Positions 12,374 to 60,996 of a DNA stretch of 64,000 nucleotides are shown piece after piece. The position numbers and the translations under genes are program-made. The notes under the pieces were generated by a model. That model saw only the letters and a program-made list of their open reading frames with translations, ran no database searches and had not been told where the DNA came from. How positions within the stretch are numbered: position 1 is the first letter of the stretch; each line of letters begins with the position of its first letter. The stretch is from an uncultured virus (IMG/VR IMGVR_UViG_3300027672_001707) (taxonomy: Duplodnaviria > Heunggongvirae > Uroviricota > Caudoviricetes). The stretch lies in the IMG/VR virus record IMGVR_UViG_3300027672_001707. One strand, given 5' to 3'.

Positions 12374-13760
12374 ATATACAATAGACTTACAAAGACTATT
12401 CTTAGAGATGATGCTCAACGATGCAGAGTCTTACGTTAGAGTACAAAATATTTTTAACGCAGAAAACTTTGATAAAAGTTTAAGAGAACCGGCAAAGTTT
12501 ATCGAAAAGCATACTTCTGAATATAGCACTATGCCTACGGCAGACCAGATTAATGCGGCTACTGGAAGTAAACTTAAACCAGTAAAAGAATTAACCGAAG
12601 GTCATTATGATTGGTTTATGTCTGAGTTTGAAGCATTTACTAGACGTAACGAATTAGAACGTGCTATTTTAAAAAGTGCAGACTTACTTGAAAAAGGCGA
12701 GTATGATCCTGTAGAGAAACTAATTAAAGATGCAGTACAAATAAGTTTAACAAAAGACTTAGGTATCGAGTATTGGGAAGATCCTAGAGCAAGACTTATG
12801 GCTCTTAAAGACGGCAATGGTCAAGTAAGTACTGGCTGGGCAAACTTAGATAAGAAATTATTTGGTGGATTTAACAGAGGCGAACTAAACATCTTTGCAG
12901 GTGGTAGTGGATCTGGTAAGAGTTTGTTTATGCAAAATCTTGCAGTTAACTGGACAATGGCAGGACTTAATGGTGTATACTTAACATTAGAGTTAAGTGA
13001 AGGATTGTGTGCTATGCGTTTAGACAGTATGGTTTCCGAAATTCCAACTAAAGATGTCTTTAAAGATTTAGATACACTTGAAATGAAAATTGGCATGGCT
13101 GGTAAAAAAGCAGGAAGTTTGCGTATTAAGTATATGCCAGCACAAAGTAACATTAACGATATTAGGTCATACATAAAAGAATTACAAGTTAAAATAGGTA
13201 AAAAACTAGATTATATTTGTGTTGATTACTTAGACTTGTTAATGCCTGTTAGTGCAAAAGTTAGTCCAAATGATCAGTTTATTAAAGACAAATATGTAAG
13301 TGAAGAATTGCGTAACTTGGCAAAAGAAATGGACTTTATTATGGTAACTGCTTCGCAGTTAAACAGAGCGGCAGTTGAAGAAATTGAATTTGACCATTCT
13401 CATATCGCTGGTGGTATTAGTAAAATTAATACTGCTGATAACGTTATTGGTATATTTACTAGTAGGGCAATGAGAGAACGTGGAAGATATCAAATACAAT
13501 TTATGAAAACTAGAAGTAGTAGTGGAGTAGGGCAAAAAGTAGACTTAGAATTTGATAACAATAGTTTGCGTATTAGAGATTGTGATGAATCTGATAGTGA
13601 TTCTGCATCGGCTTCTTCTACTATTAGTACAGATGTGATGAATAAAATTAAAGCACAATCTAATGTAGGGAACCAATCAGCCGAACAACCAGAAAAGATT
13701 GTCCGAGCCGAAGTACAGTCTAATAAACTGAATGATATGCTTAAAAATTTAAAGACTTAG
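12363..13760 (+). CDS. DnaB-like replicative helicase (T4 gp41-like)
   Basis: GGSGSGKS, TLEL, VDYLDL, TASQLNR, KTR; TTG start. Confidence 0.9.
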   Translation: MATEYTIDLQRLFLEMMLNDAESYVRVQNIFNAENFDKSLREPAKFIEKHTSEYSTMPTADQINAATGSKLKPVKELTEGHYDWFMSEFEAFTRRNELERAILKSADLLEKGEYDPVEKLIKDAVQISLTKDLGIEYWEDPRARLMALKDGNGQVSTGWANLDKKLFGGFNRGELNIFAGGSGSGKSLFMQNLAVNWTMAGLNGVYLTLELSEGLCAMRLDSMVSEIPTKDVFKDLDTLEMKIGMAGKKAGSLRIKYMPAQSNINDIRSYIKELQVKIGKKLDYICVDYLDLLMPVSAKVSPNDQFIKDKYVSEELRNLAKEMDFIMVTASQLNRAAVEEIEFDHSHIAGGISKINTADNVIGIFTSRAMRERGRYQIQFMKTRSSSGVGQKVDLEFDNNSLRIRDCDESDSDSASASSTISTDVMNKIKAQSNVGNQSAEQPEKIVRAEVQSNKLNDMLKNLKT

Positions 13761-14539
13761 TCTTTAGGTTTAAATTGGTCTAGTATCACTTTACCATCTT
13801 TTGTTTTAGATAAATGTGCTTTATTAATTTTTCTATGGTAATCACTAATACTGTGATCATATGCACCATCAAATAATTGCCACTTTTTCCAAGCAGAAAT
13901 TCTTCCTCGTATCCTGTCTTTGAAACGTTGCCATGTACTTAACCCGTTTCTAATATTGCCAAAATGGTTTAAATATTTCATTTGACCGTGATGTCTAAAA
14001 CCAATAAACGCAGGTGGAACTCTAGTTACCGCATCATTGTTATTAACCCAACGATAGTGTTTAAATTTACAACTGTTTATGAATTCTTTATTACCAACAC
14101 GTGGCGAACCATATGTATATAATGCTAAATCCTCAAACTTATCTTGTAACCTTGCGGCACAGAGTGTTGCCATCGCGGCACCTAAACTGTGACCGGTAAT
14201 AGTCATTTGTTTTTTTGGGTTGTTATTTGCAAATTCTTCAATTTCATCCCAAATCTTTTCAATTTCATCATAAAATCCATCATGTACTTTACCTGCAACT
14301 TTACTCTTACTTTTCCAACTTTTGGCATCAGCAATAAGATCGCTAGGTTGACTAGGTTCAGTACCTCTAAAAGCAATCGTAATAAGGTCATCATTGCTCA
14401 ACAAATATGCTTGAGCCCCATCGGTATTCAAAAAATGGATGGTTTTATACCCTATTTTACTAAAAGTTGCTTCAATAGATGGGTTTAGATCCGTGTATGC
14501 ACAGGCAGAAAGCATTGCATGGTGTGAATCATAGTTCAT
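13757..14539 (-). CDS. class 3 lipase / alpha-beta hydrolase
   Basis: AFRGT, VHDGF, TGHSLGAA, YGSPRVG, D.VTRVP, DH motifs; AGGAG SD. Confidence 0.9.
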   Translation of the reverse strand: MNYDSHHAMLSACAYTDLNPSIEATFSKIGYKTIHFLNTDGAQAYLLSNDDLITIAFRGTEPSQPSDLIADAKSWKSKSKVAGKVHDGFYDEIEKIWDEIEEFANNNPKKQMTITGHSLGAAMATLCAARLQDKFEDLALYTYGSPRVGNKEFINSCKFKHYRWVNNNDAVTRVPPAFIGFRHHGQMKYLNHFGNIRNGLSTWQRFKDRIRGRISAWKKWQLFDGAYDHSISDYHRKINKAHLSKTKDGKVILDQFKPKD

Positions 14540-14627
14540 ATTATCAGACTCCTTCTTTAGTTAACTTAATAATATGTATTTAACCAAATTTTTTAAATAA
14601 ATAACATATAATACGGAGATAATTTTA

Positions 14628-14870
14628 ATGCAACACAAACATCGTAGTCTACTAGAAGAACTAGACAAAATAGCAATTCCTCGAGATCGTGTACATCTTA
14701 TCGAATCAAGGGCTCAACATATTATTGCAGGCGCCATAAACCTAGTTAACTTAATTAGAGAGTGTTACGATGATGAAGTTGTAGAAGAAATGGAACGTAA
14801 ATTGCTACTAGCAATTAAGAGGCAGGACCCTGCCAAGTTTAATAACGGATTAAAGAAGTTAAAAAAATGA
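14628..14870 (+). CDS. conserved phage hypothetical protein
   Basis: ORF after ATAAATA late-type promoter and GGAG. Confidence 0.7.
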   Translation: MQHKHRSLLEELDKIAIPRDRVHLIESRAQHIIAGAINLVNLIRECYDDEVVEEMERKLLLAIKRQDPAKFNNGLKKLKK

Positions 14871-15409
14871 GAATAGATGAAATTGACTTTGGAAAACGAG
14901 TCACAGACAGCAAAGCAAAAATACAAGAACTAAAAGAACTTGGTAAAAAAGTTAAGGGAATGTATGAAAAAGCACAACAAAATTTCGCAGATGTCGAAAT
15001 TGAAAATGCTGAGCAATTTGACGCAGAACCAATGCAAGCCTTTGCTAATTGGTTTAAACATATGTTTAAAAATGATGTTGAAAAGGTATTGAATATACCT
15101 GCATTAAAACTTTCAGATGCTAACATTAAAAAAGTTGGAAAACTTGTAGTTGCATATGCATCACAGAATTACTACTTAAAACCTAAAACTCCGTTTCAAG
15201 GTGCTAACACTTTTATGAAAATTGTTAAGATAGTAGATCCGCAGTTAGTTAACATAGCAGACCAAGTGTTTGGTAGATTTATTAGAGGCGAAGAACAAAA
15301 GAATCCTGAAAAACTTCCAGATGATATATCACAAACATTACAAAATTTAACAGATGAGCAAAAAGCCCAATTAGATGCTCTACTTAATAAGGCTGGGAGC
15401 AAAGCATAA
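14867..15409 (+). CDS. hypothetical protein, putative head-internal protein
   Basis: Begins MRIDEI (shared leader motif). Confidence 0.6.
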   Translation: MRIDEIDFGKRVTDSKAKIQELKELGKKVKGMYEKAQQNFADVEIENAEQFDAEPMQAFANWFKHMFKNDVEKVLNIPALKLSDANIKKVGKLVVAYASQNYYLKPKTPFQGANTFMKIVKIVDPQLVNIADQVFGRFIRGEEQKNPEKLPDDISQTLQNLTDEQKAQLDALLNKAGSKA

Positions 15410-15672
15410 TGAAACTTAATGAGTTAAACGATTTAACTGAAAAGAAAAGTCGTAAACAACGTAAAAAGCAACAAGCAAAAAAGCGCCAGCAAAAAGCAAA
15501 CGCAATACCTAAAGCAAAGCCTACAGTAGAGCCTACAGTAGAGCCTACAGCACAAGCACCAGAAGTAACACAAGCAACTGTTGATGTAGAAGCACTAGCA
15601 ATGGTTATTAAATCACTAGACTTAGACGACGAAGTAAGAGCTATCTTAGCCAGAAGTAAGCGAGCGGCATAA
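15409..15672 (+). CDS. hypothetical protein, putative head-internal protein
   Basis: Begins MKLNELNDLTE; basic stretch and PTVE repeats. Confidence 0.6.
   Translation: MKLNELNDLTEKKSRKQRKKQQAKKRQQKANAIPKAKPTVEPTVEPTAQAPEVTQATVDVEALAMVIKSLDLDDEVRAILARSKRAA
15518..15550 (+). repeat. 12-bp in-frame tandem repeat (AGCCTACAGTAG, about 2.75 copies)
   Basis: Read directly; encodes PTVE-PTVE-PTA. Confidence 0.85.
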
Positions 15673-15673
15673 C

Positions 15674-16930
15674 ATGATTATAAAAGAAATTTTTGAACCT
15701 AAAACACATTACTGGAATATTCTTAACGAAGCAGAAGGTAAAAACACACACTTAGAACATATTGAAGACTTAATCTTTAATGAAGGTTACGCAGGTGCCC
15801 AAAGAGCATTTAATTATCTAGATGCAGTTAAAGGTTTATTAGAAGGCGGACAACCAGAAGGTAAAGTTACTGTTAAGTGGGATGGTGCCCCGGCAATTAT
15901 TTGCGGAATAGATCCAGAAGATAGTAAATTCTTTGTAGGCACTAAATCAGTGTTTAATGCAAAGACACCTAAAGTTGCTAAATCAGTAGCACAAATTAAA
16001 GAATGGTATTCCGAGCAACCTTCACTAGAAGCAAAATTATTAATGGCGTTTAAACTATTACCTAAATTAGGCATAGGATCAGTTGTACAAGGCGACTTCC
16101 TTTTTGGCCCAGGTGATGTTAAAACAGAAGACGTTGGTGATGACAACTGTTATACGTTTACCCCTAACACTATTACATACGCAGTTCCTGTGGATAGTGC
16201 TATTGGCAAACGTGTCGCTAAAGCAAAAATCGGAATAGTATTTCATACAGAATATACAGGTGCTACACTACCAGAAATGACTGCAAATTTTGGTTACAGT
16301 GTTAGAGGTTTACAACCTACAGCAGATGTATGGTATGATGACGCAAATTATAAAGATGTATCCGGTATTGCAACACTAACACCTAGCGAAGAAAAGGCTA
16401 TAGACGGTACTATTGCAACAGGGCGTACTACACTTAAAAAAGTAGGTCCTAAAATGGATCAAGTACTACAGGCTGAATTTGCAAAGTTTATTAAACCTTT
16501 TATTAATAATAATGTAAGAGCAGGGGAACAAGTCGGTGAACCGACAAAGTTCCTACAAGACTTTATGAATTATTATAATGATAAGATGAATAAAGAAGTT
16601 GAAAAATTAAAAGGCGGCGCTGAAAGTCCAGCGGCACAAAAACGTTTTGAAAAAATTGAACAACAAAAGAAATTTTTAGCAGACAATAGTAATACGTTGC
16701 TCTTGACACTAGCAGTGTATCGTCGTATAATTAGTGCTAAACTATTATTAATTAGTAAATTAAGTAATGTAGATAAAATTGGAACATTTGTAAAAACTGA
16801 AAATGGATACAGAGTTACAAACCATGAAGGATTTGTAGCATTTGGTATAGACGGTGGAGCAGTTAAACTAAATGATAGAATGGAATTCAATGCATTGAAT
16901 TTCTCAGCAACTAAAACTTGGAGCAAATAA
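15674..16930 (+). CDS. DUF6267-like protein with RNA-ligase-type nucleotidyltransferase motifs
   Basis: TVKWDG (motif I KxDG), VQGDF (III), HEGFV (IV), AVKL (V); KNTHLEHIED N-terminal motif. Confidence 0.65.
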   Translation: MIIKEIFEPKTHYWNILNEAEGKNTHLEHIEDLIFNEGYAGAQRAFNYLDAVKGLLEGGQPEGKVTVKWDGAPAIICGIDPEDSKFFVGTKSVFNAKTPKVAKSVAQIKEWYSEQPSLEAKLLMAFKLLPKLGIGSVVQGDFLFGPGDVKTEDVGDDNCYTFTPNTITYAVPVDSAIGKRVAKAKIGIVFHTEYTGATLPEMTANFGYSVRGLQPTADVWYDDANYKDVSGIATLTPSEEKAIDGTIATGRTTLKKVGPKMDQVLQAEFAKFIKPFINNNVRAGEQVGEPTKFLQDFMNYYNDKMNKEVEKLKGGAESPAAQKRFEKIEQQKKFLADNSNTLLLTLAVYRRIISAKLLLISKLSNVDKIGTFVKTENGYRVTNHEGFVAFGIDGGAVKLNDRMEFNALNFSATKTWSK

Positions 16931-16934
16931 GTTA

Positions 16935-17687
16935 ATGGACAAGTATACTGCAAGTGAATGGGCGGCAATGGACGGTGGTCATACAATTGAACCTAAACAA
17001 AAGATGTTTGGATTTATGAACGATGAACTAGTTGAAGCAAGATTGTTTAGAAACCCAACACAATTCGCTACATCAAATAAAGAAGATATTGCAAAGAACG
17101 TGTATGCACACTTAATGGGTGTACAAGCAATGCGTTATACTGATCCTGGACAAGCAAGTACATATGCTAGGAAAACTATGTCATACAACGGCTTCGACGG
17201 AGTAAGAACCGGTGCAACAGACTTGCATAACTTAATTGCAGGATTGGAACGTAAAGGCGGATACAGTATTCCGACTGCACAAATTAAAAGATATTTAAAG
17301 AACGTACAAAATGGTGTAGTAGATACACAATTAGACAGACGTACTATGCTTGCCGTTGAACGTTCACTACAAATTAGAGATCCAAAACTAACTGCAATGA
17401 GACGAATCATTTCAGACTGGCCTCGTGCTTTACCAAATGAACAAAAAGCAGGAGCAACACGTTTAGGGTTTATGCTTAATCATTATGCCAGAGGCAGTGA
17501 TTTAGCAGGACCGTATAACAAAAGTGTTACTGGTATAGTTTCACAAAATGCTAAAAGTCCGTACACTGGTAACACATTCGCAAAAACTATTGCAGGTGTG
17601 GCAGTTGGTGCAGTTATAGGATACAAAGCAATCCGAGATAAGAACATTCAAAACGTACATAAGAAATATAAGATTAAAAAGGCGTAA
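16935..17687 (+). CDS. hypothetical protein with C-terminal hydrophobic segment
   Basis: 250-aa ORF in the late block. Confidence 0.7.
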   Translation: MDKYTASEWAAMDGGHTIEPKQKMFGFMNDELVEARLFRNPTQFATSNKEDIAKNVYAHLMGVQAMRYTDPGQASTYARKTMSYNGFDGVRTGATDLHNLIAGLERKGGYSIPTAQIKRYLKNVQNGVVDTQLDRRTMLAVERSLQIRDPKLTAMRRIISDWPRALPNEQKAGATRLGFMLNHYARGSDLAGPYNKSVTGIVSQNAKSPYTGNTFAKTIAGVAVGAVIGYKAIRDKNIQNVHKKYKIKKA

Positions 17688-17731
17688 AACACCCTATACA
17701 TTATATTTGTGTTTTACTACTGTTTGACTTT

Positions 17732-17739
17732 TATAAATA
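17732..17739 (+). promoter_or_regulatory. T4-type late promoter TATAAATA
   Basis: Exact TATAAATA; also seen at 22201, 28385, 29857, 33166, 36036, 39490, 40396 and 40778. Confidence 0.75.
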
Positions 17740-17773
17740 CATTAGTAAGAAACGTAATAAACGTTTGTTACAT

Positions 17774-17877
17774 AGGCAAAATTAAGGCAACAAACTTAGG
17801 CATACAGGCAACAATTTATAGGCAAATCAAAGGCATTCATTAAGGCTCCGAAATTATCAACCCGCCCCAGGTAGGCG
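17774..17877 (+). repeat. intergenic array of eight AGGC(A) motifs
   Basis: AGGCA at 17774, 17785, 17798, 17806, 17820, 17831; AGGCT at 17843; AGGCG at 17873. Confidence 0.8.
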
Positions 17878-17896
17878 TAACAGGAACTAAAAGAGA

Positions 17897-18154
17897 ATGA
17901 GTACAAGAGAAATTGAGAAAGAAAGCCTAGAGGCCCATGTAGAATTATGTGCGGCGAGGTATTCACGATTGGAAGAAAAATTAGACAATTTAGAGGGCCG
18001 AGTTATCGGCATTGAAACTGTACTTGGGGAAATCCGAGACACTGTTGTCAAAGATAGAGAAAAACGTCAATCTCAACTTATCATGTGGGGTATGACTATC
18101 ATTGGTTCTTTAATCAGTGCAGTAGGCATACTATCCTACAACTTATTCATATAG
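17897..18154 (+). CDS. coiled-coil protein with C-terminal TM helix (XhlA/holin-like architecture)
   Basis: Heptad-rich N-terminus and one hydrophobic C-terminal helix. Confidence 0.6.
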   Translation: MSTREIEKESLEAHVELCAARYSRLEEKLDNLEGRVIGIETVLGEIRDTVVKDREKRQSQLIMWGMTIIGSLISAVGILSYNLFI

Positions 18155-18203
18155 TAATTCACAAAAAATTAAAACCGATTAAACTTAACTAAATAGTAGT
18201 GTT

Positions 18204-18521
18204 ATGCTTATATTAGAACTATTCAGCGACGAAAATACACCTATCGAAGAAGTACATCCTACTTCTTTAGATGAAACCAAAATGGCTTGGGGCCGTTCGG
18301 GTAACAAAGTTGTACGAAAGTACAGATGCTCAATTGGTAGATTAAAAGGTAAAATAGTAAGTAGTCCTGGTGCGTGTTTTAAAGCACCTGATATAAGAAA
18401 ACGTATTAAACTAAAAATGACTAAAGCAAAACTTGGATCCAGAATGAAGTTGAAATCAAAACGTACTAAACGTATCAACCCAGCAAGTAAACGTGTTCAA
18501 GCATTGAATAAACGGAGTTAA
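18204..18521 (+). CDS. basic hypothetical protein, putative head-internal protein
   Basis: Acidic leader MLILELF..LDE followed by a highly basic body. Confidence 0.65.
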   Translation: MLILELFSDENTPIEEVHPTSLDETKMAWGRSGNKVVRKYRCSIGRLKGKIVSSPGACFKAPDIRKRIKLKMTKAKLGSRMKLKSKRTKRINPASKRVQALNKRS

Positions 18522-18522
18522 A

Positions 18523-18777
18523 ATGAGAATTAGTGATTTATTTGAAGAACCTATGCAAGGTAAAGTAACTAAGGTTGCTGGCGATAATGTTGAAATTATC
18601 GATCCAAAGAAGCCAGGTGTTACGACTAAAATTGACCTAAAGAAAATGGATATAGATACTTCAAATCCTAATGCTCCAACCATTAAGCCAAAATCCGCTA
18701 AACCCCAAGGACAAGGCTCCAAAATTAAACCCGGACAAACAGTATCCATTGCTACCGAGGTCAAAAAAAAAGACTGA
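18523..18777 (+). CDS. hypothetical protein; upstream part of a putative frameshift fusion
   Basis: GGAG SD; begins MRISDLFEE; ends GTC AAA AAA AAA GAC TGA. Confidence 0.7.
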   Translation: MRISDLFEEPMQGKVTKVAGDNVEIIDPKKPGVTTKIDLKKMDIDTSNPNAPTIKPKSAKPQGQGSKIKPGQTVSIATEVKKKD

Positions 18778-19430
18778 CTGACCTTGAAGAAGGTGTAAAC
18801 GATCCCGCAATTTTTAAAGCAGTATTCCTAGCAGGTGGTCCTGGTAGTGGTAAGAGCTTTATTGCTAAGAATGTTGCATTTGTGTCTTTAGGATATAAAA
18901 TAATAAACACCGACGATGCTTATGAGTATCTAGCAAAAAAGAGCAATATTGATTTAACAGATCCAGATGCACTTGCTAGTACTGACGGACAAGCGACAAG
19001 ACAACGTGCTAAAGCCTTAACTGATATAAAACAACAATCTTTTTTAGATGGACGCCTAGGCGTAGTTATAGATGGCACCGGTAAAGATTATGACAAAATA
19101 GAACATCTAAGTGGAGAATTGCGTAAAATCGGATACGATTGTGCAATGGTGTTTGTTAACACTGACTTAGATACGGCATTAGAACGTAATGCTAAAAGAG
19201 ATAGAAGATTACCCAACGAACTAGTTACTAAAATGTGGAAAAGTGTACAAACAAACATTGGAAAATTCCACAACTTTTTTGGTAGAAATATGTTCGTAGT
19301 AGACAATTCAAATAATGAAAGCCTAAAGGGTGTATTACTGGGTATGTATAGAAGAATGAAAGCATACACAGAAACACCGCATACTAATCCTGTTGCAAAA
19401 GCATGGATTAAGACGCAACAAGGCAAGTAA
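18771..19430 (+). CDS. P-loop kinase (Pnk/AAA_33/zeta-like), probably expressed by -1 slippage from the upstream ORF
   Basis: AVFLAGGPGSGKS Walker A lies upstream of the track's GTG at 18882; INTDD, VIDGTG, ALERNAKR; no ATG/GTG/TTG between the in-frame stop at 18726 and the P-loop. Confidence 0.75.
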   Translation, partial: RLTDLEEGVNDPAIFKAVFLAGGPGSGKSFIAKNVAFVSLGYKIINTDDAYEYLAKKSNIDLTDPDALASTDGQATRQRAKALTDIKQQSFLDGRLGVVIDGTGKDYDKIEHLSGELRKIGYDCAMVFVNTDLDTALERNAKRDRRLPNELVTKMWKSVQTNIGKFHNFFGRNMFVVDNSNNESLKGVLLGMYRRMKAYTETPHTNPVAKAWIKTQQGK

Positions 19431-20084: not shown

Positions 20085-21086
20085 ATGGAATTAAATGATT
20101 TAAACAAAGTATCGAGAAGTAGTAAGTTAAACAAATTACTGTCTACTCGTTTTGGATTCGGTTTTGATTTAAGCAAAATGAACGAAGACATCGCCAACCA
20201 AATGATAAAAACTGCTAAAAGAGAAATGGCAGAAGAAACTGAGGGCAAGAAGTATATGATGTCTAAAGTTGTTTTAGAAACAGTTGAAGCATGGCAAATT
20301 GAAAATAACTTAGGTGTTAACGAAGGTCCAACTACAAAAGAAAAAGGTGAGATTGAGCCCAATGATGGTAAAGTAGAACCAGAACAAGAATCTCCAGCGG
20401 CACAAAGTAGAAAAGCAAATGCTTTAAGACTACTAGTAGGCCCACAAAATTATATGAAAGCCAAACGTGCTTTAGAAATGTACAAAAAAGGTCAAACAGT
20501 TCCCCCGACTTTAATGACAGGACTTATGCCAATTATAGATATGATTGATGAAATTATGTCTAGTAATTTAGCAAATGTGCGTTTCTTACAAATGGTAGAC
20601 AAACGTGCTAAAAAACAATTAGGCATTGCAGAGTCTAAACAAATTAACGAAGGTGATGTTGAGAGTGCTGAATTAGTACTAGCATCAAAAGACCTAGTTG
20701 ACAGAATTCAATCTATGTTAGAAGATGTGAGTGATATGCAGGCAGAAGATTTACTTCCATTAACGGATCAAATCCGTGATGAAATGGGTAATGAAAAAGC
20801 AGAAGCATTTATAAATGCCGCTAAAGGTTCGTTGGATGCACTATATGATGCGTTAACAACTGCAAGAGGCGACATGGATAATGCATCACGTATTTTAACT
20901 GGAAATGCAGACGAGTCTGGAACAGACTTAACTACTGCTGACGACCTTGAACTTGAAGAGCCTGTAGCAGATGCTGATGCAGACGCAGAAGTAAATGCAG
21001 TCGATGATACATTAGATATAGACTTAGACGCAGACGCTTCTGGACAAGAAGGCGTTGACGATTTAGATCGACAAGAACGTTCATAA
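20085..21086 (+). CDS. putative prohead core/scaffold-like protein
   Basis: After CTAAATA; helical, very acidic C-terminus; several I/V-x-E sites. Confidence 0.5.
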   Translation: MELNDLNKVSRSSKLNKLLSTRFGFGFDLSKMNEDIANQMIKTAKREMAEETEGKKYMMSKVVLETVEAWQIENNLGVNEGPTTKEKGEIEPNDGKVEPEQESPAAQSRKANALRLLVGPQNYMKAKRALEMYKKGQTVPPTLMTGLMPIIDMIDEIMSSNLANVRFLQMVDKRAKKQLGIAESKQINEGDVESAELVLASKDLVDRIQSMLEDVSDMQAEDLLPLTDQIRDEMGNEKAEAFINAAKGSLDALYDALTTARGDMDNASRILTGNADESGTDLTTADDLELEEPVADADADAEVNAVDDTLDIDLDADASGQEGVDDLDRQERS

Positions 21087-21448: not shown

Positions 21449-21514
21449 TACTTGACATTGTAGGCAATACTACTGTATAATTAAAGTTATACATAATCAA
21501 TAAGAGAATTATTC

Positions 21515-22198
21515 ATGATAACTGAACGGTACGATTATACACCAATCAAACGTAAACAAGTAGACGGCAAAAGATTATACACAACACCATCAGGTGTAGC
21601 CGTTCCAAGTGTTACAACAATCCTTGACAAAACAAAATCAGAAGAGAAAAAACAGATACTTCGTAACTGGAAAAAACGTGTAGGTGAAGCAAAGGCACAA
21701 GAAATTGTAACTGAAGCATCTGGACGTGGAACTCGTATGCATAAATGGTTAGAAGACTATTGCATAGAAGATAAAATTAAAGCACCAGGCAGTAACCCAT
21801 TCAGCCAACAAAGTCATAAAATGGCTGAGATTGTTATTGAAAAAGGTATGTCTCATGTAAGCGAAATATGGGGAACAGAAGTTCCGTTGTATTTCCCAAG
21901 TATCTATGCTGGTACAACGGACTGTGTTGGATTGTATGACGGTAAACCCTCTATTATAGATTTCAAGCAAACTAATAAACCTAAAAAGACCGAATGGGTA
22001 GGTGATTACTTCTTACAGTTAACAGCCTATGCCACTGCTCACAACGAAATACACGGTACTGATATACATCAAGGTGCTATTTTAATGTGTAGTAAAGACT
22101 ATGAATACCAGTATTGGGTACTTGAAGGTGACGAGTGGGATAAAACTGTTAAAGAATGGTGGAAAAGAGTAGAAGACTTTTATACAAATCATTTTTAG
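21515..22198 (+). CDS. PD-(D/E)XK exonuclease
   Basis: PSVTTIL, RGT.MH, E..L, AGTTD, IIDFK, QL.AY; preceded by TTGACA-N18-TATAAT. Confidence 0.85.
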   Translation: MITERYDYTPIKRKQVDGKRLYTTPSGVAVPSVTTILDKTKSEEKKQILRNWKKRVGEAKAQEIVTEASGRGTRMHKWLEDYCIEDKIKAPGSNPFSQQSHKMAEIVIEKGMSHVSEIWGTEVPLYFPSIYAGTTDCVGLYDGKPSIIDFKQTNKPKKTEWVGDYFLQLTAYATAHNEIHGTDIHQGAILMCSKDYEYQYWVLEGDEWDKTVKEWWKRVEDFYTNHF

Positions 22199-29833: not shown

Positions 29834-29864
29834 TTGACAAAGTCAAGTGAATAGTGTATAAATA
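29834..29864 (+). promoter_or_regulatory. overlapping sigma70 and late promoter of the tmRNA
   Basis: TTGACA(29834-39)-N17-TATAAA, whose -10 is also TATAAATA (29857-64). Confidence 0.7.
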
Positions 29865-29869
29865 TACTT

Positions 29870-30133
29870 AGAACGTTGAAGCAATTCAAAAGTTAAACTG
29901 GACCCGGGTGCGAATCCCGGCATCTCCACCAAATACAACAGATTTTTCATATGGGGATGAATAGGATCGACAGGTAATTACTAGAGTTAGTGGAGTTCTC
30001 GGGATCTAAGCACCGTTATCGCGAAGAAACTTTATAATTGCAAATAACAATTATCAGCCAGAAATGGCATTAGCGGCTTAGTAAAATAAGCACGTGGGGG
30101 TTGGCAACGTACCTAGCAACAGAAATCGTTGCA
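29870..30133 (+). ncRNA. ssrA: two-piece (circularly permuted) tmRNA
   Basis: Acceptor piece with T-arm CCGGG-TGCGAAT-CCCGG and CATCTCC-ACCA (ends 29931) lies upstream of coding piece GGGGATG (29953); G3-U70 pair; tag ANNNYQPEMALAA* at 30040-30081. Confidence 0.92.
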
Positions 30134-30273
30134 TATACCAAAGTTAGAAACATTAGTGACAAAGGATTGTTACAAGCATACACTGGTAACATGGAAATAC
30201 ACTTTCTAATTGCACACGTTTCAGTGAACGTGACGAACTATATACAGATATATAAAAAGTACCAAGTAATTTT

Positions 30274-51996: not shown

Positions 51997-52072
51997 GCCG
52001 CTTTAGCTCATTTGGTAGAGCAACTGATTTGTAATCAGTAGGTGCCCAGTTCGAATCCGGGAAGCGGCACCA
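51997..52072 (+). tRNA. tRNA-Thr(TGT)
   Basis: Cloverleaf; anticodon loop TTTGTAA; TTCGAAT T-loop; encoded CCA. Confidence 0.92.
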
Positions 52073-52088
52073 CAGAAAAATAAATTGC

Positions 52089-52292
52089 GTGAATGATCGT
52101 AACAAAAATAATAAACATAATACCAGATATCGTGGCATGAATCCTAATGCAAAATCAAATAGGATGCAAAGTATAAAAGTAGCACCAGACGAAGTAGTCG
52201 GCGCTAGAAAGAAATTATACGCAGAATGTAAAGCGGCTGGTTTGACTGATATGCAGGCACTAGTTAAGTGTTTTGAAATCGTACCTAAATAA
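52089..52292 (+). CDS. hypothetical protein
   Basis: ORF between tRNAs; start uncertain. Confidence 0.4.
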   Translation: MNDRNKNNKHNTRYRGMNPNAKSNRMQSIKVAPDEVVGARKKLYAECKAAGLTDMQALVKCFEIVPK

Positions 52293-52301
52293 AAATACTC
52301 C

Positions 52302-52391
52302 GGAGAGATGGCTGAGCGGTTGAAAGCACCGGTTTACTAAACCGGCAAAGGGGCAACTCTTTCCTGGGTTCAAATCCCAGTCTCTCCGCCA
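52302..52391 (+). tRNA. tRNA-Ser body with anticodon ACT
   Basis: GGAGAGA/TCTCTCC acceptor, G73, long variable arm, stem CCGGT/ACCGG with loop TT-ACT-AA, CCA. Confidence 0.88.
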
Positions 52392-52465
52392 CTTTTATGG
52401 CTCTTGACAACACTCGTTGAATGTTATATTATAGTATTAGTATGTTACAAAAAGAATTTAGTTTT

Positions 52466-52541
52466 GGGGGATTAGCTCATCTGGGAGAGCGCCTGATTTG
52501 CATTCAGGAGGTAGCAGGTTCGATCCCTGTATCCTCCACCA
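52466..52541 (+). tRNA. tRNA-Ala(TGC)
   Basis: G3-U70 pair, loop TTTGCAT, CCA. Confidence 0.92.
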
Positions 52542-52552
52542 AAACTATAAAG

Positions 52553-52629
52553 GCACCCTTAGCTCATCTGGATAGAGCGTTGGTTTGCGGAACCAGAGGT
52601 AATAGGTTCGAGTCCTGTAGGGTGCGCCA
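52553..52629 (+). tRNA. tRNA-Arg(GCG)
   Basis: GCACCCT/AGGGTGC acceptor, GGA D-loop (A20), loop TT-GCG-GA, CCA. Confidence 0.88.
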
Positions 52630-59542: not shown

Positions 59543-59878
59543 ATGACAACATTTGTAAAAGACAATTTTAATTATGACGGAATGTACTTAACGTATAACA
59601 ACGATAGTACACAACATTATGGTAACAATGAGTTTGTTGCTAGGTTTAAATATGTTAAATTTGCAGGTGCATTTAAGTCTTTTCTTATTAAAAACTTTAC
59701 TACTGATGAGTATTTTGCTAGATATAAAGCAGGTGAAAGTCCGTTAACAATACTAGAATCTAAAGGTTTTGTTACTCCACAAGCAAAGAAATTGTGTAAG
59801 CAATATGGCATGGAACCTACTAATGAGAACTATATGGCAATAATTCGTAAAATGGTTGACGAAAGGGATAGCAAATAA
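59543..59878 (+). CDS. conserved phage hypothetical protein
   Basis: AGGAG SD; FVARFKY and SPL.ILESKG. Confidence 0.7.
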   Translation: MTTFVKDNFNYDGMYLTYNNDSTQHYGNNEFVARFKYVKFAGAFKSFLIKNFTTDEYFARYKAGESPLTILESKGFVTPQAKKLCKQYGMEPTNENYMAIIRKMVDERDSK

Positions 59879-60996
59879 TGAAGAATATTACTAGTTTAGC
59901 AAGTCTATACAAAAGAGATACTAAAGGTAAATTAAGAATTTGGACTATCGAGCATGGTTACGATTCCGAAGATGTAGCAGGTATTAGGACCATTTCAGGT
60001 TTAGTTGATGGTCAAAAAATTACAGGTGCATGGAATATATCAGTTGCTAAAAATACAGGTAGAGCAAATTCTACTACTTCACAAAGTCAAGCTCTTGCAG
60101 AAGCCAAAAGTGAATGGACTAAAAAAGCAGACAAAGAGTATTTTGAAAACGTAGATGATGTAGATAGTTACGAATTATTTAAGCCTATGTTGGCACACGA
60201 TTTTACAAAAACTCCTGTAACAAGTGGATACACACAACCTAAGTTAGATGGTATCCGTTGTGTCACTGATACAAATGGTATGCATACACGTGGTGGTAAA
60301 CCTATTAACAGTTGTCCGCACGTTATGGAGAGTTTAAGTGAACTAATTAAGTCTAACCCAAGTATTGTACTTGATGGAGAACTTTATAATCATGAACTAA
60401 AAGCAGACTTTCAAAAGATTGTTAGTTTAGTTCGTAAAGTAAAGTGTCGACCAGAAGAGATCGCTGAAGCAAGTGAGAAAGTACAATATCATATCTACGA
60501 TATGTTTGATAAAAACAATCCTAGTATGACCTTTACTCAACGTAGTAAGTGGTTAGCAGATAATGTTTCAGGTAATCAAATTGTACTTGTTCCAACTGAC
60601 AAAGCAGACAGTACAGAAGATATTGATAAGTTATATGGTGAATACACACAGGCGGGTTACGAAGGTCAAATGGTTCGTCAAGATAGTGCTTATGAATGTA
60701 AAAGAAGTAAAAATTTACTAAAACGGAAAGAGTTTATTACTGAAGAATATTCAGTAGTAGAAGTAGTAGAAGGACAGGGTAACTGGTCAGGTTATGCTAA
60801 AAAGTTTGTTCTTGTATTATCCGACGGTAAGCAGTTTAGTTCAGGAGTGCGAGGTTCACAAGCACAATTGAAAGCATTATGGGAAAGTACAGAAAAGCCT
60901 ACTTGGGTAACTTGTAGATATTTTGAGTTATCAAATGACGGAGTTCCTAGGTTTCCTGTAGTTATTGATTATGGTATTGGAAAACGAGATGACTGA
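59878..60996 (+). CDS. ATP-dependent DNA ligase
   Basis: PMLA, QPKLDGIR, LDGELY, YD, EGQMVR, LLKRK, PRFP. Confidence 0.9.
   Translation: MKNITSLASLYKRDTKGKLRIWTIEHGYDSEDVAGIRTISGLVDGQKITGAWNISVAKNTGRANSTTSQSQALAEAKSEWTKKADKEYFENVDDVDSYELFKPMLAHDFTKTPVTSGYTQPKLDGIRCVTDTNGMHTRGGKPINSCPHVMESLSELIKSNPSIVLDGELYNHELKADFQKIVSLVRKVKCRPEEIAEASEKVQYHIYDMFDKNNPSMTFTQRSKWLADNVSGNQIVLVPTDKADSTEDIDKLYGEYTQAGYEGQMVRQDSAYECKRSKNLLKRKEFITEEYSVVEVVEGQGNWSGYAKKFVLVLSDGKQFSSGVRGSQAQLKALWESTEKPTWVTCRYFELSNDGVPRFPVVIDYGIGKRDD

What the first reader, a model, noticed from the sequence alone, without database searches (positions are those of the whole stretch)
15674..19430. Candidate virion-packaged RNA repair system: ligase-like protein plus Pnk-like kinase
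Seen: 15674..16930 carries the covalent nucleotidyltransferase motifs in order (KWDG, QGD, EGFV, VKL) with no obvious OB domain. 18771..19430 is a P-loop kinase (GGPGSGKS, INTDD, IDGTG, ERNAKR). Both lie in a late block, and both (the kinase via fusion) start with the shared head-targeting-like leader and have an L-x-E site just before the enzyme domain (ILNE-AEGK, DLEE-GVND). Known: T4 Pnk and Rnl1 heal and seal tRNA cut by the PrrC anticodon nuclease, but they are made after infection. Inference: this phage may load a kinase/ligase pair into the capsid and inject it to pre-empt host ribotoxins. No 3'-phosphatase partner is visible in this window, and zeta-like kinases can have other substrates.
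Basis: partly seen in the sequence, partly recalled or inferred. Interest (0 to 1): 0.85.

Follow-up and report, generated by a model that had tools for sequence, protein, structure and literature searches.

The report
Head-tagged ligase-like enzyme and recoded kinase
A 307-kb marine phage with a T4-type head encodes an unrecognised RNA-ligase-shaped enzyme and a polynucleotide-kinase-like enzyme that both carry head-loading-type tags, and the kinase can only be made by a conserved slip at a run of nine A's, so the phage probably packs a small nucleic-acid end-repair kit into its capsid, though what it repairs is unknown.

Summary
ORF 15674-16930 is Pfam DUF6267. It has an invariant KxDG lysine and a confident model whose best long structural matches are RNA ligases (moderate Z). 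It has no OB domain. The kinase at 18771-19430 is real and lies closest to tRNA and polynucleotide kinases, but adenylate-kinase and zeta-like readings are not excluded.

New here: the kinase has no start codon before its P-loop. It continues ORF 18523-18777 in the -1 frame at an A9 run, which is followed by stop codons in both other frames. This layout is identical in five diverged sequence variants, the kinase ORF is under purifying selection (dN/dS 0.19-0.32), and more distant relatives have the fusion in frame. I read it as programmed recoding, most likely transcriptional slippage.

The phage has a T4 gp21-type prohead protease. A short N-terminal leader is shared by 6 of 13 ORFs in this block and 9 of 385 elsewhere. 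A 44%-identical kinase homologue with the same type of leader is abundant in published Atu_ph07 virions.

Packaging in this phage, the substrate and the RNA-repair role remain inferred. The kinase occurs without DUF6267 in Atu_ph07. Earlier notes of this scan read the ligase/kinase kit the same way on other genomes; those listed do not mention the recoding site.

The parts
14596..14603 (+). AATAAATA, a T4-type late-promoter-like motif 24 nt before the first gene of the operon 14628-17687
   Evidence: NATAAATA lies within 80 nt upstream of 49 ORF starts, among them portal, tail and baseplate-like genes
14628..14870 (+). 80-aa ORF, phrog_11854 'virion structural protein'
   Evidence: E 1.1e-16
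14867..15409 (+). 180-aa ORF with the shared leader (MRIDEI...)
15409..15672 (+). 87-aa basic ORF with the shared leader (MKLNEL...)
15674..15739 (+). Residues 1-22 of the DUF6267 protein: disordered leader with candidate cleavage site L17-N18-E19|A20
   Evidence: pLDDT under 50 for residues 1-5 and 11-22; W14 invariant in A1; the stretch around ILNE is similar across the clade
15674..16930 (+). DUF6267 protein, 418 aa: ligase-type nucleotidyltransferase core (about residues 64-223 and 370-411) with a helical domain inserted between motifs III and IV, and no OB domain
16935..17687 (+). 250-aa ORF without any family match, syntenic in all relatives of the clade
17732..17739 (+). TATAAATA late-promoter-like motif upstream of the 17897-19430 gene group
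17897..18154 (+). 85-aa coiled-coil protein with a hydrophobic C-terminus. At 89-96% identity it is among the best-conserved ORFs of the block in the 87-91% lineages.
18204..18521 (+). 105-aa basic ORF with the shared leader (MLILELF...)
18523..18777 (+). Zero-frame product of the recoded gene: 84 aa, made of the leader (MRISDLFEE), a small beta-rich part and a basic linker, ending KKKD-stop
18763..18771 (+). A9 slippery run (A_AAA_AAA in the zero frame). One extra A in the mRNA, or a -1 ribosomal slip, joins the two ORFs.
   Evidence: A9 in all 14 loci that hold the motif
18772..18781 (+). GACTGACTGA: TGA stops in both non-kinase frames (18775-18777 and 18779-18781), identical in all five sequence variants
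18771..19430 (+). Kinase part in the -1 frame: linker with L-E-E|G site, then a P-loop kinase of the PNK/PSTK-like fold
20085..21086 (+). 333-aa acidic ORF with the shared leader (MELNDL...), phrog_14154 'virion structural protein'

Best explanation
The stretch holds two cargo-type enzymes of a 307-kb marine phage that builds a T4-type head.

(1) The DUF6267 protein is a divergent covalent nucleotidyltransferase with the catalytic core of ATP-dependent RNA ligases. K68 is the probable AMP-accepting lysine. A helical domain is inserted between motifs III and IV, and there is no OB domain.

(2) The kinase is a P-loop phosphotransferase of the polynucleotide/tRNA-kinase type. It is not a gene of its own. 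RNA polymerase (or, less likely, the ribosome) slips at a run of nine A's at the end of ORF 18523-18777. Unslipped messages give an 84-residue leader-bearing small protein. Messages with one extra A give that protein fused to the kinase. This fixes a ratio between an abundant small internal protein and a rarer enzyme fusion.

Both proteins begin with a disordered leader of the type found on neighbouring genes and on the ORF at the place of T4 gene 67 (which encodes a prohead protein), next to the prohead protease gene. Both have a hydrophobic-x-Glu site just before the folded enzyme. The likely course is: late synthesis, loading into the prohead, trimming by the gp21-type protease, and ejection with the DNA. 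In the cell they would phosphorylate and join broken nucleic-acid ends.

Shown: the motifs, the folds, the recoding anatomy and its conservation, and the leader statistics. Inferred: packaging in this phage, cleavage, enzymatic activity and substrate.
For: Ligase-like enzyme:
- Pfam DUF6267, E 8e-108.
- K68, D70, G71 and K398 are invariant in 120 homologues of 31-91% identity.
- AF2 pLDDT 90.7.
- Of 48,161 chains, the best match is Naegleria RNA ligase 5cot (Z 8.2, 187 residues aligned). Next come REL1 (7.7), Trl1 (7.6), T4 Rnl2 (7.2) and T4 Rnl1 (7.0). DNA ligases score 5.6-6.1.

Kinase:
- Pfam AAA_33 and Zeta_toxin.
- VIA Z 15.8 for PSTK, 14.7 for Clostridium Pnk, 12.7 for T4 Pnk; the adenylate kinases listed score 11.2-12.4.

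Recoding:
- No start codon before the P-loop.
- A9 followed by GACTGACTGA is identical in five diverged variants, in 14 of 14 loci that hold the motif.
- The kinase ORF is open in all of them, with dN/dS 0.19-0.32 at dS 0.16-2.0.
- Relatives L007, L008 and L105-L107 have the same two parts fused in frame.
- L008 keeps an A9 run with stops in both other frames.
- Runs of 9 A or T are efficient bacterial RNA-polymerase slippage sites that add A's (passages of PMC5009743).
- DNA contigs from two runs show no indel at the site.

Packaging:
- The genome holds Peptidase_S77 and Gp23.
- The leader starts 6 of 13 block ORFs against 9 of 385 elsewhere.
- 52 of 150 DUF6267 representatives and 26 of 45 unique kinases start with a T4-type ten-residue leader. 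T4 ipII and ipIII read MKTYQEFIAE in the T4 record. The control at internal methionines is 7 of 2050.
- Hydrophobic-x-E lies before the domain in 107 of 113 N-extended DUF6267 forms, against 14% of control windows.
- Atu_ph07 gp53 (44% identical kinase, leader MKWNDLNE) gave 31 unique peptides and 45.5% coverage in virions (Table S5 of PMC6102473).
- In S-SZBM1 the leader-bearing nucleotidyltransferase is in virions and the leaderless DUF6267 is not listed.

Link between the two enzymes: the natural fusion P0248, and both genes present in 11 of 11 loci of the clade.
Against: - Foldseek found no PDB match at E <= 0.001 for the ligase model. The profile search against PDB sequences and hhalign against T4 Rnl2 found nothing. 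Z 8.2 is within the range the tool calls common.
- The two window proteins carry a variant leader, not the strict T4 pattern.
- There are no virion data for this phage.
- In T4-like cyanophages DUF6267 has no leader and lies behind the replicative helicase gene.
- By sequence profile the kinase family scores best against adenylate kinase 1 (E 6.6e-5) and zeta toxin. Foldseek ties AK1, zeta and Pnk.
- Only 2 of 23 kinase loci with 4 kb on both sides hold DUF6267.
- Atu_ph07 has no DUF6267 (positive control).
- No phosphatase or cyclic phosphodiesterase partner was found.
- No RNA contig bridges the A9 run, so slippage is not seen directly.
Confidence: 0.55

Rival explanations
1. These are cytoplasmic enzymes of DNA replication or repair and are not packaged. 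DUF6267 would be the phage's nick-sealing ligase, the kinase would prepare 5' ends, and the N-terminal motif would have another role or none.
For: - In P-HM1, Syn9, HTVC008M and S-SZBM1 the gene follows the replicative helicase, UvsX and DNA polymerase genes and has no leader.
- In the window it lies 2 kb behind the DnaB-like helicase gene.
- It is not listed among the 30 virion proteins of S-SZBM1.
- 470 phage records carry it, nearly all cyanophages.
Against: - This genome has a separate ATP-dependent DNA ligase at 59878-60996.
- The leader and the hydrophobic-x-E site are strongly enriched.
- A late-promoter-like motif precedes the operon.
- The structural matches favour RNA ligases, and there is no OB domain.
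- The kinase homologue is abundant in Atu_ph07 virions.
Confidence: 0.2
2. The kinase acts on a small molecule (a nucleotide, nicotinamide riboside, dephospho-CoA or UDP-GlcNAc). Together with the HxGH nucleotidyltransferases fused to it in relatives it makes or restores a cofactor such as NAD+, which the ligase-like enzyme may use. This would be a cofactor kit, not an end-healing kit.
For: - The family profile scores best against adenylate kinase 1 (E 6.6e-5) and zeta toxin (E 5e-4).
- Pfam gives Zeta_toxin over its cut-off.
- Foldseek ties AK1, zeta and Pnk.
- CTP_transf_like is fused to the kinase in L024, L025, L069 and L070, and to DUF6267 in 9 of 29 long forms scanned.
- That this resembles the NadR or CoA-synthase layout is my recollection, not a result of any call.
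Against: - By VIA the three best matches include the tRNA kinase PSTK and Clostridium Pnk, about 2-4 Z units above the adenylate kinases listed and nicotinamide riboside kinase (Z 10.2).
- Sequence identity is highest to T4 Pnk, at 22-24%.
- The cyanophage-type nucleotidyltransferase has no BLAST match in this genome.
Confidence: 0.2
3. The frameshift is a defect: a homopolymer indel that killed the kinase gene in this lineage, or an assembly error.
For: - The shifted layout is confined to the clade with 87-100% DUF6267 identity. More distant relatives are in frame.
- The window's kinase is only 57-58% identical to those of lineages whose flanking genes are 77-96% identical.
- No RNA contig crosses the site.
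Against: - Five diverged variants keep exactly A9 plus the double stop.
- The 211-212-codon kinase ORF is open in all of them, with every catalytic motif and dN/dS 0.19-0.32 at dS up to about 2.
- The same sequence stands in the window, in G000 and in DNA contigs of two runs, dated 2017 and 2023.
Confidence: 0.07
4. The kinase starts on its own at the in-frame CTG at 18774 and is a leaderless cytoplasmic protein. The A9 run plays no role.
For: CTG 18774 is the only near-cognate start before the P-loop. GAGG lies 13 nt upstream of it in the window.
Against: - The purine-rich stretch upstream is not conserved (L099 has GAAGAG, L100 has GAGATGG).
- The spacing is long and CTG starts are rare (recalled).
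- Orthologues are in-frame fusions.
- This reading does not explain the strict A9 and the stops in both other frames.
Confidence: 0.08

Closest known systems
ATP-dependent RNA ligases without an OB domain: Naegleria NgrRnl (Rnl5, 5cot), Trypanosoma REL1 and T4 Rnl2 (Rnl2 type), T4 Rnl1, fungal Trl1 ligase domain
   Same: KxDG lysine motif followed by motifs III, IV and V in the same order. A nucleotidyltransferase core that aligns over 178-206 residues (Z 7.0-8.2). No OB domain.
   Different: No detectable sequence-profile relation. Pfam files it only as DUF6267. A helical domain of about 130 residues is inserted between motifs III and IV instead of an appended C- or N-terminal domain. It has a conserved N-terminal K-N-x-H-L-E-H-x-E-D motif. 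Activity, nucleotide donor and substrate are untested.
T4 Pnkp with Rnl1 (tRNA repair after PrrC cleavage), bacterial Pnkp/Hen1, and fungal Trl1 (ligase-kinase-phosphodiesterase)
   Same: A P-loop polynucleotide-kinase-like domain genetically linked to a ligase-type enzyme, and in one relative fused to it (P0248). The kinase fold lies closest to PSTK, Clostridium Pnk and T4 Pnk.
   Different: No 3'-phosphatase or cyclic phosphodiesterase domain or gene was found. The kinase occurs without the ligase-like gene in Atu_ph07. The T4 enzymes are made after infection and carry no capsid tag (the biology of T4 Pnkp/Rnl1 is recalled).
T4 internal proteins IPI, IPII, IPIII and Alt: capsid targeting sequence, gp21 cleavage, ejection
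   Same: gp21-type protease and gp23-type capsid genes are present. Short N-terminal leaders end in hydrophobic-x-Glu. Many relatives of both enzymes start with a ten-residue leader matching T4's positions 4, 7, 8 and 10.
   Different: The two window proteins carry a variant leader (M-x-I/L-x-D/E-I/L-F-E), also seen on the Atu_ph07 virion proteins gp53 and gp54. The cargo here is enzymes, not small basic proteins. Neither packaging nor cleavage is shown for this phage.
Programmed transcriptional slippage at A9/T9 (Thermus thermophilus dnaX) and the -1 frameshift of phage tail chaperones G/GT
   Same: A nine-base homopolymer with stop codons close by in both other frames. Two products share an N-terminal part (passages of PMC5009743).
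   Different: It joins a leader-bearing small protein to an enzyme. In the window's clade the long form needs the slip, whereas in L008 the long form is the zero frame. Product ratios have not been measured.

Membership tests
Covalent nucleotidyltransferases (polynucleotide ligases and capping enzymes) | Motif I KxDG with the nucleotidyl-accepting lysine | tested here: met
   K68, D70 and G71 are invariant in 120 homologues.
Covalent nucleotidyltransferases (polynucleotide ligases and capping enzymes) | Motifs III, IV and V follow in order | tested here: met
   Q139-G-D and E385-G are at least 90% conserved and K398 is invariant. Which stretch is which motif is my assignment.
Covalent nucleotidyltransferases (polynucleotide ligases and capping enzymes) | Nucleotidyltransferase fold | tested here: inconclusive
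   By VIA the best of 48,161 chains is an RNA ligase (Z 8.2, rmsd 4.1, 187 residues aligned), and every match among the first ten rows that aligns more than 150 residues is a ligase. However, Foldseek found no match at E <= 0.001, and Z near 8 is common for models without a clear match.
Covalent nucleotidyltransferases (polynucleotide ligases and capping enzymes) | Recognised by a ligase sequence family or profile | tested here: not met
   Pfam gives DUF6267 only. The profile against PDB sequences gave no ligase. hhalign against T4 Rnl2 gave probability 0.4%.
DNA ligases and capping enzymes | C-terminal OB domain with motif VI | tested here: not met
   The model ends with one helix about 20 residues after K398.
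Covalent nucleotidyltransferases (polynucleotide ligases and capping enzymes) | Self-nucleotidylation and strand joining | not testable with these tools
   Needs a biochemical assay.
T4 Pnk-type polynucleotide 5'-kinase | P-loop kinase fold nearest to the Pnk/PSTK group | tested here: met
   PSTK Z 15.8, Clostridium Pnk 14.7, T4 Pnk 12.7, Pnkp1 12.5; the adenylate kinases listed score 11.2-12.4. Foldseek does not separate these groups.
T4 Pnk-type polynucleotide 5'-kinase | Catalytic Asp after strand 2 and the lid arginines | tested here: inconclusive
   D62, R153, R157 and R159 are invariant in 28-29 sequences. Their equivalence to T4 Pnk residues is recalled; no residue-level alignment was shown here.
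T4 Pnk-type polynucleotide 5'-kinase | Fused or adjacent 3'-phosphatase | tested here: not met
   The protein ends after the kinase domain. The genome has no PNK3P match at E <= 0.1.
Zeta-toxin-type kinases | Pfam Zeta_toxin over its cut-off | tested here: met
   45.9 bits against a cut-off of 22.3. Zeta Z 12.9. Substrate residues and an antitoxin were not examined.
T4 capsid-targeting-sequence cargo | gp21-type prohead protease and gp23-type capsid in the same genome | tested here: met
   Peptidase_S77 E 3e-29 and Gp23 E 2e-99.
T4 capsid-targeting-sequence cargo | Ten-residue leader with T4's pattern: aromatic at positions 4 and 7, hydrophobic at 8, Glu at 10 | tested here: not met
   The window proteins start MIIKEIFEPK and MRISDLFEEP. 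Only F7 fits. Relatives do fit: 52 of 150 DUF6267 representatives and 26 of 45 kinases. The window's variant leader matches those of Atu_ph07 gp53 and gp54.
T4 capsid-targeting-sequence cargo | Presence in virions and cleavage after Glu | not testable with these tools
   Only homologues are covered: Atu_ph07 gp53 is in virions. Cleavage has not been examined in any of them.
Programmed transcriptional slippage or -1 frameshifting | Slippery homopolymer conserved across diverged lineages, with a downstream ORF under selection | tested here: met
   A9 in 14 of 14 loci holding the motif, in five variants; dN/dS 0.19-0.32.
Programmed transcriptional slippage or -1 frameshifting | Heterogeneous transcripts or a trans-frame protein observed | tested here: inconclusive
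   Contigs from RNA libraries cover both ORFs, but none spans 18733-18808. Only contigs were available, not raw reads.

The most novel reading that the evidence does not exclude
A widespread group of ocean phages loads a ready-made nucleic-acid end-repair kit into the capsid: a new family of RNA-ligase-like enzyme plus a polynucleotide kinase. This phage sets the dose of the kinase by programmed RNA-polymerase slippage at an A9 run, which converts an abundant small internal protein into a rare internal-protein-kinase fusion. The injected enzymes would repair host-inflicted breaks in tRNA, mRNA or the incoming DNA before any phage gene is expressed.
Probability: 0.25. Interest if true: 0.85.

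Novelty: new variant of a known kind. Interest (0 to 1): 0.72.

Why it matters
DUF6267 is one of the commonest unassigned proteins of marine phages: 3089 clusters at 50% identity and 470 cultured phage records, nearly all cyanophages. A search of the paper library for 'DUF6267' found nothing.

If it is a ligase, it fills the 'no ligase' gap described for T4-like cyanophages (that description is recalled from the literature and from earlier notes of this scan). If it and the kinase are injected, phages would deliver repair enzymes before any gene expression, a counter-defence route so far known mainly for small inhibitor proteins and for Alt.

The A9 site is a clean, testable case of recoding that ties an enzyme to a capsid-loading module. 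It offers a way to ask how phages set the copy number of packaged cargo.

Tried and rejected
- Sequence searches for a ligase relation failed. phmmer and the profile search against PDB sequences gave only antibodies or coiled coils. hhalign of the family against T4 Rnl2 gave probability 0.4%. Foldseek against the PDB gave no match at E <= 0.001.
- RNA evidence for slippage was not obtained. Only assembled contigs were available. In two RNA-library runs the contigs stop at 18732 and 18707 and resume at about 18810-18822, while DNA contigs run through. The stops are not at the run itself, so I draw nothing from this.
- An RNA stem enclosing the A9 run is predicted in the window, but z is -0.49 and it is absent in L099. 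Rejected as a signal.
- TATAAATA is not enriched in the window as a whole (10 found, 11.6 expected). Only its placement before genes is informative.
- No PNK3P or RNA_ligase (Rnl2-type) Pfam match in the genome. The RNA_lig_T4_1 search rang in no control, so it shows nothing.
- The cyanophage-type nucleotidyltransferases have no BLAST match in this genome.
- The domain with the FTRHF-x-DR-x-ND motif, which precedes the kinase in many relatives, gave no Pfam match and only unnamed viral clusters in the ESM Atlas.
- The Syn9 transcriptome paper (PMC5029184) is not held, so the expression class of the Syn9 homologue was not checked.
- I did not run complex prediction, because I do not claim that the two proteins bind each other.
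I could not see which part.

Full report
**What the window is.** The window is the reverse complement of positions 116,614-180,613 of a 306,714-base virus contig, 36% G+C, with a 30-base word of its start repeated near its end. The contig differs from the window at 12 places, none at the kinase frameshift site. The genome encodes a T4 gp23-type major capsid protein (E 2e-99) and a T4 gp21-type prohead protease (Peptidase_S77, E 3e-29). These lie in a gene order like T4's portal-67-68-21-22-23 module. So this is a jumbo phage with a T4-type head. The window itself is mostly replication and nucleotide-metabolism genes: a primase, a DnaB-like helicase, ribonucleotide reductase and a separate ATP-dependent DNA ligase at 59878-60996. 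It also holds a tmRNA gene and four tRNA genes.

**The ligase-like protein.**
- ORF 15674-16930 (418 aa) is a full-length member of Pfam DUF6267 (E 8e-108) and of phrog_455, both of unknown function.
- The family is very large. All 8000 scored candidates passed E 1e-5 in the word-based search. The exhaustive search found 3089 clusters at 50% identity with E <= 0.001. 470 cultured phage records carry it, almost all cyanophages. A search of the paper library for 'DUF6267' found nothing.
- In 120 homologues of 31-91% identity the invariant residues are K68, D70, G71, G78, P81, Y169, G187 and K398. Q139-G-D, H191-T, E385-G and D401-R are at least 90% conserved.
- AlphaFold2 on this alignment gives pLDDT 90.7 and pTM 0.87. 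Residues 1-22 are disordered. The model has a beta-rich core (64-223 and 370-411), a helical domain (30-56 and 237-363) and no domain after motif V.
- Foldseek finds no PDB match at E <= 0.001, although ligases are frequent among the weak rows.
- The exhaustive VIA comparison ranks Naegleria RNA ligase first of 48,161 chains (Z 8.2, rmsd 4.1, 187 residues). It is followed by REL1 (7.7), Trl1 (7.6 and 7.4), T4 Rnl2 (7.2) and T4 Rnl1 (7.0). DNA ligases score 5.6-6.1. The other high rows are short helical bundles that match the inserted domain.
- Sequence profiles do not connect the family to any ligase.
- I therefore file it as working like an OB-less RNA-ligase-type nucleotidyltransferase, not as a member of a named ligase family.

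**The kinase.**
- The frame holding the P-loop is open from 18729 to 19430.
- Pfam gives Zeta_toxin and AAA_33. PHROGs gives phrog_12810 (unknown function, E 6e-58) and 'polynucleotide kinase' phrog_505 (E 3e-11).
- The single sequence scores best against archaeal phosphoseryl-tRNA kinase (E 4e-5). A family profile scores best against adenylate kinase 1, then zeta toxin, PSTK and T4 Pnk.
- The AF2 model has pLDDT 88.3. Foldseek ties it to AK1, zeta toxin and Clostridium Pnk.
- VIA puts PSTK (Z 15.8), an uncharacterised kinase (15.4) and Clostridium Pnk (14.7) ahead. A fungal kinase, zeta toxin, Kti12, T4 Pnk and Pnkp1 follow at 12.5-12.9, and the adenylate kinases listed score 11.2-12.4.
- The lean is toward nucleic-acid kinases, but it is only a lean.

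**The recoding site, the main new result.**
- The kinase frame has no ATG, GTG or TTG before the P-loop.
- ORF 18523-18777 ends GTC AAA AAA AAA GAC TGA. Moving back one base within the A9 run continues into ...K-R-L-T-D-L-E-E-G-V-N-D-P and the kinase.
- The bases after the run, GACTGACTGA, place TGA in both non-kinase frames.
- In relatives L007, L008 and L105-L107 the same N-terminal part and the kinase form one in-frame ORF of 294-302 codons.
- In the window's own clade (DUF6267 87-100% identical) the shifted layout is kept. Five distinct sequence variants differ upstream of the run (including a 3-base indel) and by up to 42% in kinase protein sequence. All five hold exactly A9 followed by the same 22 bases.
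- Scans of two collections for the 21-base motif returned 14 loci, some of them the same contigs. All 14 have a run of exactly nine.
- The kinase ORF is intact in every variant. It evolves under purifying selection: dN/dS is 0.19-0.32 at dS 0.16-2.0. The N-terminal ORF gives 0.09-0.29.
- L008 has the fusion in the zero frame but also keeps an A9 run, there followed by TAG in both other frames.
- DNA contigs of two runs, dated 2017 and 2023, carry the window's sequence without an indel.
- Runs of nine A or T are efficient slippage sites for bacterial RNA polymerase and mostly add bases. Thermus dnaX uses such a run, with stops in both other frames (passages read in PMC5009743).
- One added A gives exactly the frame needed here. 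I conclude that this is one recoded gene with two products: an 84-residue protein and a fusion of about 305 residues. Transcriptional slippage is the most likely mechanism and -1 ribosomal slippage on A_AAA_AAA is the alternative.
- Direct RNA evidence is lacking. Contigs from RNA libraries cover both ORFs but none crosses the run.

**Leaders and packaging.**
- The pattern M-x-hydrophobic-x-[DEQ]-hydrophobic starts 6 of the 13 ORFs between 14628 and 21448 and 9 of the other 385 ORFs of the genome (p 1.4e-6). One of those nine is the 71-residue ORF at the place of T4 gene 67, beside the prohead protease gene. Three are in a second block at genome positions 63-69 kb.
- In both enzymes the leader is predicted to be disordered.
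- T4's capsid targeting sequence is the first ten residues of IPIII. Residues 4 and 7 matter for targeting and residues 8 and 10 for cleavage (passages of PMC9026906). The T4 record gives MKTYQEFIAE for ipII and ipIII, and MKTFKEF... for ipI.
- 26 of 45 unique kinase relatives start with ten residues such as MKTFKTFLNE directly before G-V-N-D-P.
- 52 of 150 DUF6267 representatives start with a leader of this type, and 30 of 150 with the window's type. At internal methionines the rates are 7 and 21 of 2050.
- Among 113 DUF6267 representatives with an N-terminal extension, fusions included, 107 have hydrophobic-x-E within 13 residues before the conserved start of the domain, against 14% of control windows. 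Eighteen leaderless forms begin at the domain itself. The site therefore belongs to the extension, not to the fold.
- Two published virion proteomes bear on this.
  - In Atu_ph07, a 490-kb phage with T4 core genes, gp53 is 778 aa and 87.08 kDa. Its kinase domain is 44% identical to the window's, its leader is MKWNDLNE, and V-T-E|G precedes the kinase. It gave 31 unique peptides and 45.5% coverage, most abundantly in a lower gel band. Its neighbour gp54 (leader MRWEQLNE) gave 15 peptides (Table S5 of PMC6102473). That preparation was PEG-purified only.
  - In S-SZBM1 the nucleotidyltransferase next to DUF6267 starts MRFRQFIIE|A and was detected in CsCl-purified virions. The leaderless DUF6267 is not among the 30 proteins listed.
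- NATAAATA motifs lie before the operon that holds DUF6267, before the second leader block, and before portal, tail and baseplate-like genes.
- Together this makes head packaging likely (about 0.6) but not shown for this phage.

**Are the two enzymes a pair?**
- For: both genes lie in one syntenic block in 11 of 11 loci of the window's clade. They are two genes apart in HTVC008M. One natural kinase-DUF6267 fusion exists (P0248). Both are found fused to CTP_transf_like nucleotidyltransferases.
- Against: only 10 of the 80 best kinase loci hold DUF6267, and only 2 of the 23 loci with 4 kb on both sides. Among cultured phages the kinase occurs in 10 records and DUF6267 in 470. Atu_ph07 has the kinase but no DUF6267 (positive control). 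No 3'-end-healing enzyme was found.
- The RNA-repair reading stays possible, at about 0.2-0.25. A DNA-end or cofactor role is not excluded.

**Relation to earlier notes of this scan.** At least 30 other genomes were noted earlier with the same reading of DUF6267 as a hidden ligase. Several notes add head-loading tags, an NMNAT-like partner and a kinase. One is marked 'part of it fell'. These are unchecked AI notes and I do not count them as evidence. One of them led me to look for virion proteomes, which I then read myself. None of the notes listed mentions the A9 recoding site.

**Verdict.** The ligase-like family and the capsid-tag idea are new variants of known kinds and are not in the papers I could search. 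The recoded small-protein/kinase gene is a new instance of a known mechanism, in an unusual role.

Noticed in passing
window 29839-30172 and 51997-52629: The phage carries a tmRNA gene (tag ANNNYQPEMALAA) and four tRNA genes: Thr-TGT, Ser-ACT, Ala-TGC and Arg-GCG.
   Followed up: no
window 16703-16731 and 21452-21481: Two perfect sigma-70 consensus promoters (TTGACA, 17-18 nt, TATAAT). One lies inside the 3' end of the DUF6267 ORF, just upstream of ORF 16935. The other lies before the exonuclease gene at 21515. ORF 16935-17687 may therefore also be transcribed early.
   Followed up: no
window 18792-19430 compared with L099-L104: The kinase domain is only 57-58% identical to that of lineages whose flanking genes are 77-96% identical (DUF6267 87-91%). 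This suggests a swapped or fast-evolving kinase module downstream of the conserved slippage site.
   Followed up: partly
window 17897-18154: An 85-residue coiled-coil protein with a hydrophobic C-terminal stretch. At 89-96% identity it is among the best-conserved ORFs of the block in the 87-91% lineages. Function unknown.
   Followed up: no
genome G000:C1:63414-72766 (outside the window): A second block behind NATAAATA motifs. It holds three leader-bearing ORFs, a 454-aa CTP_transf_like protein, and a 751-aa protein whose N-terminus carries the FTRHF-x-DR-x-ND domain that precedes the kinase in many relatives. That domain has no Pfam match.
   Followed up: partly
genome G000:C1:197861-198406 (outside the window): The only ORF of the genome that starts with a strict T4-type ten-residue leader (MKTFKQYLME). 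It has GATAAATA 28 nt upstream.
   Followed up: no
genome G000:C1:186518-187307 (outside the window): A small P-loop kinase (141 aa, AAA_33) directly followed by a 123-aa HxGH-type nucleotidyltransferase. This is a second kinase-transferase pair, without leaders.
   Followed up: no
window 13757-14539, minus strand: A class 3 lipase gene (Pfam Lipase_3, E 4e-29) on the opposite strand, between the helicase gene and the late operon.
   Followed up: no
window 19341: G in the window but A in G000 and in the DNA contigs of runs X1 and X5. In the kinase frame this changes Gly to Ser.
   Followed up: no
P0202, L024 and L003:8387-10174: DUF5824 recurs as a further domain in the polyproteins that join the nucleotidyltransferase, the kinase and DUF6267.
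   Followed up: no
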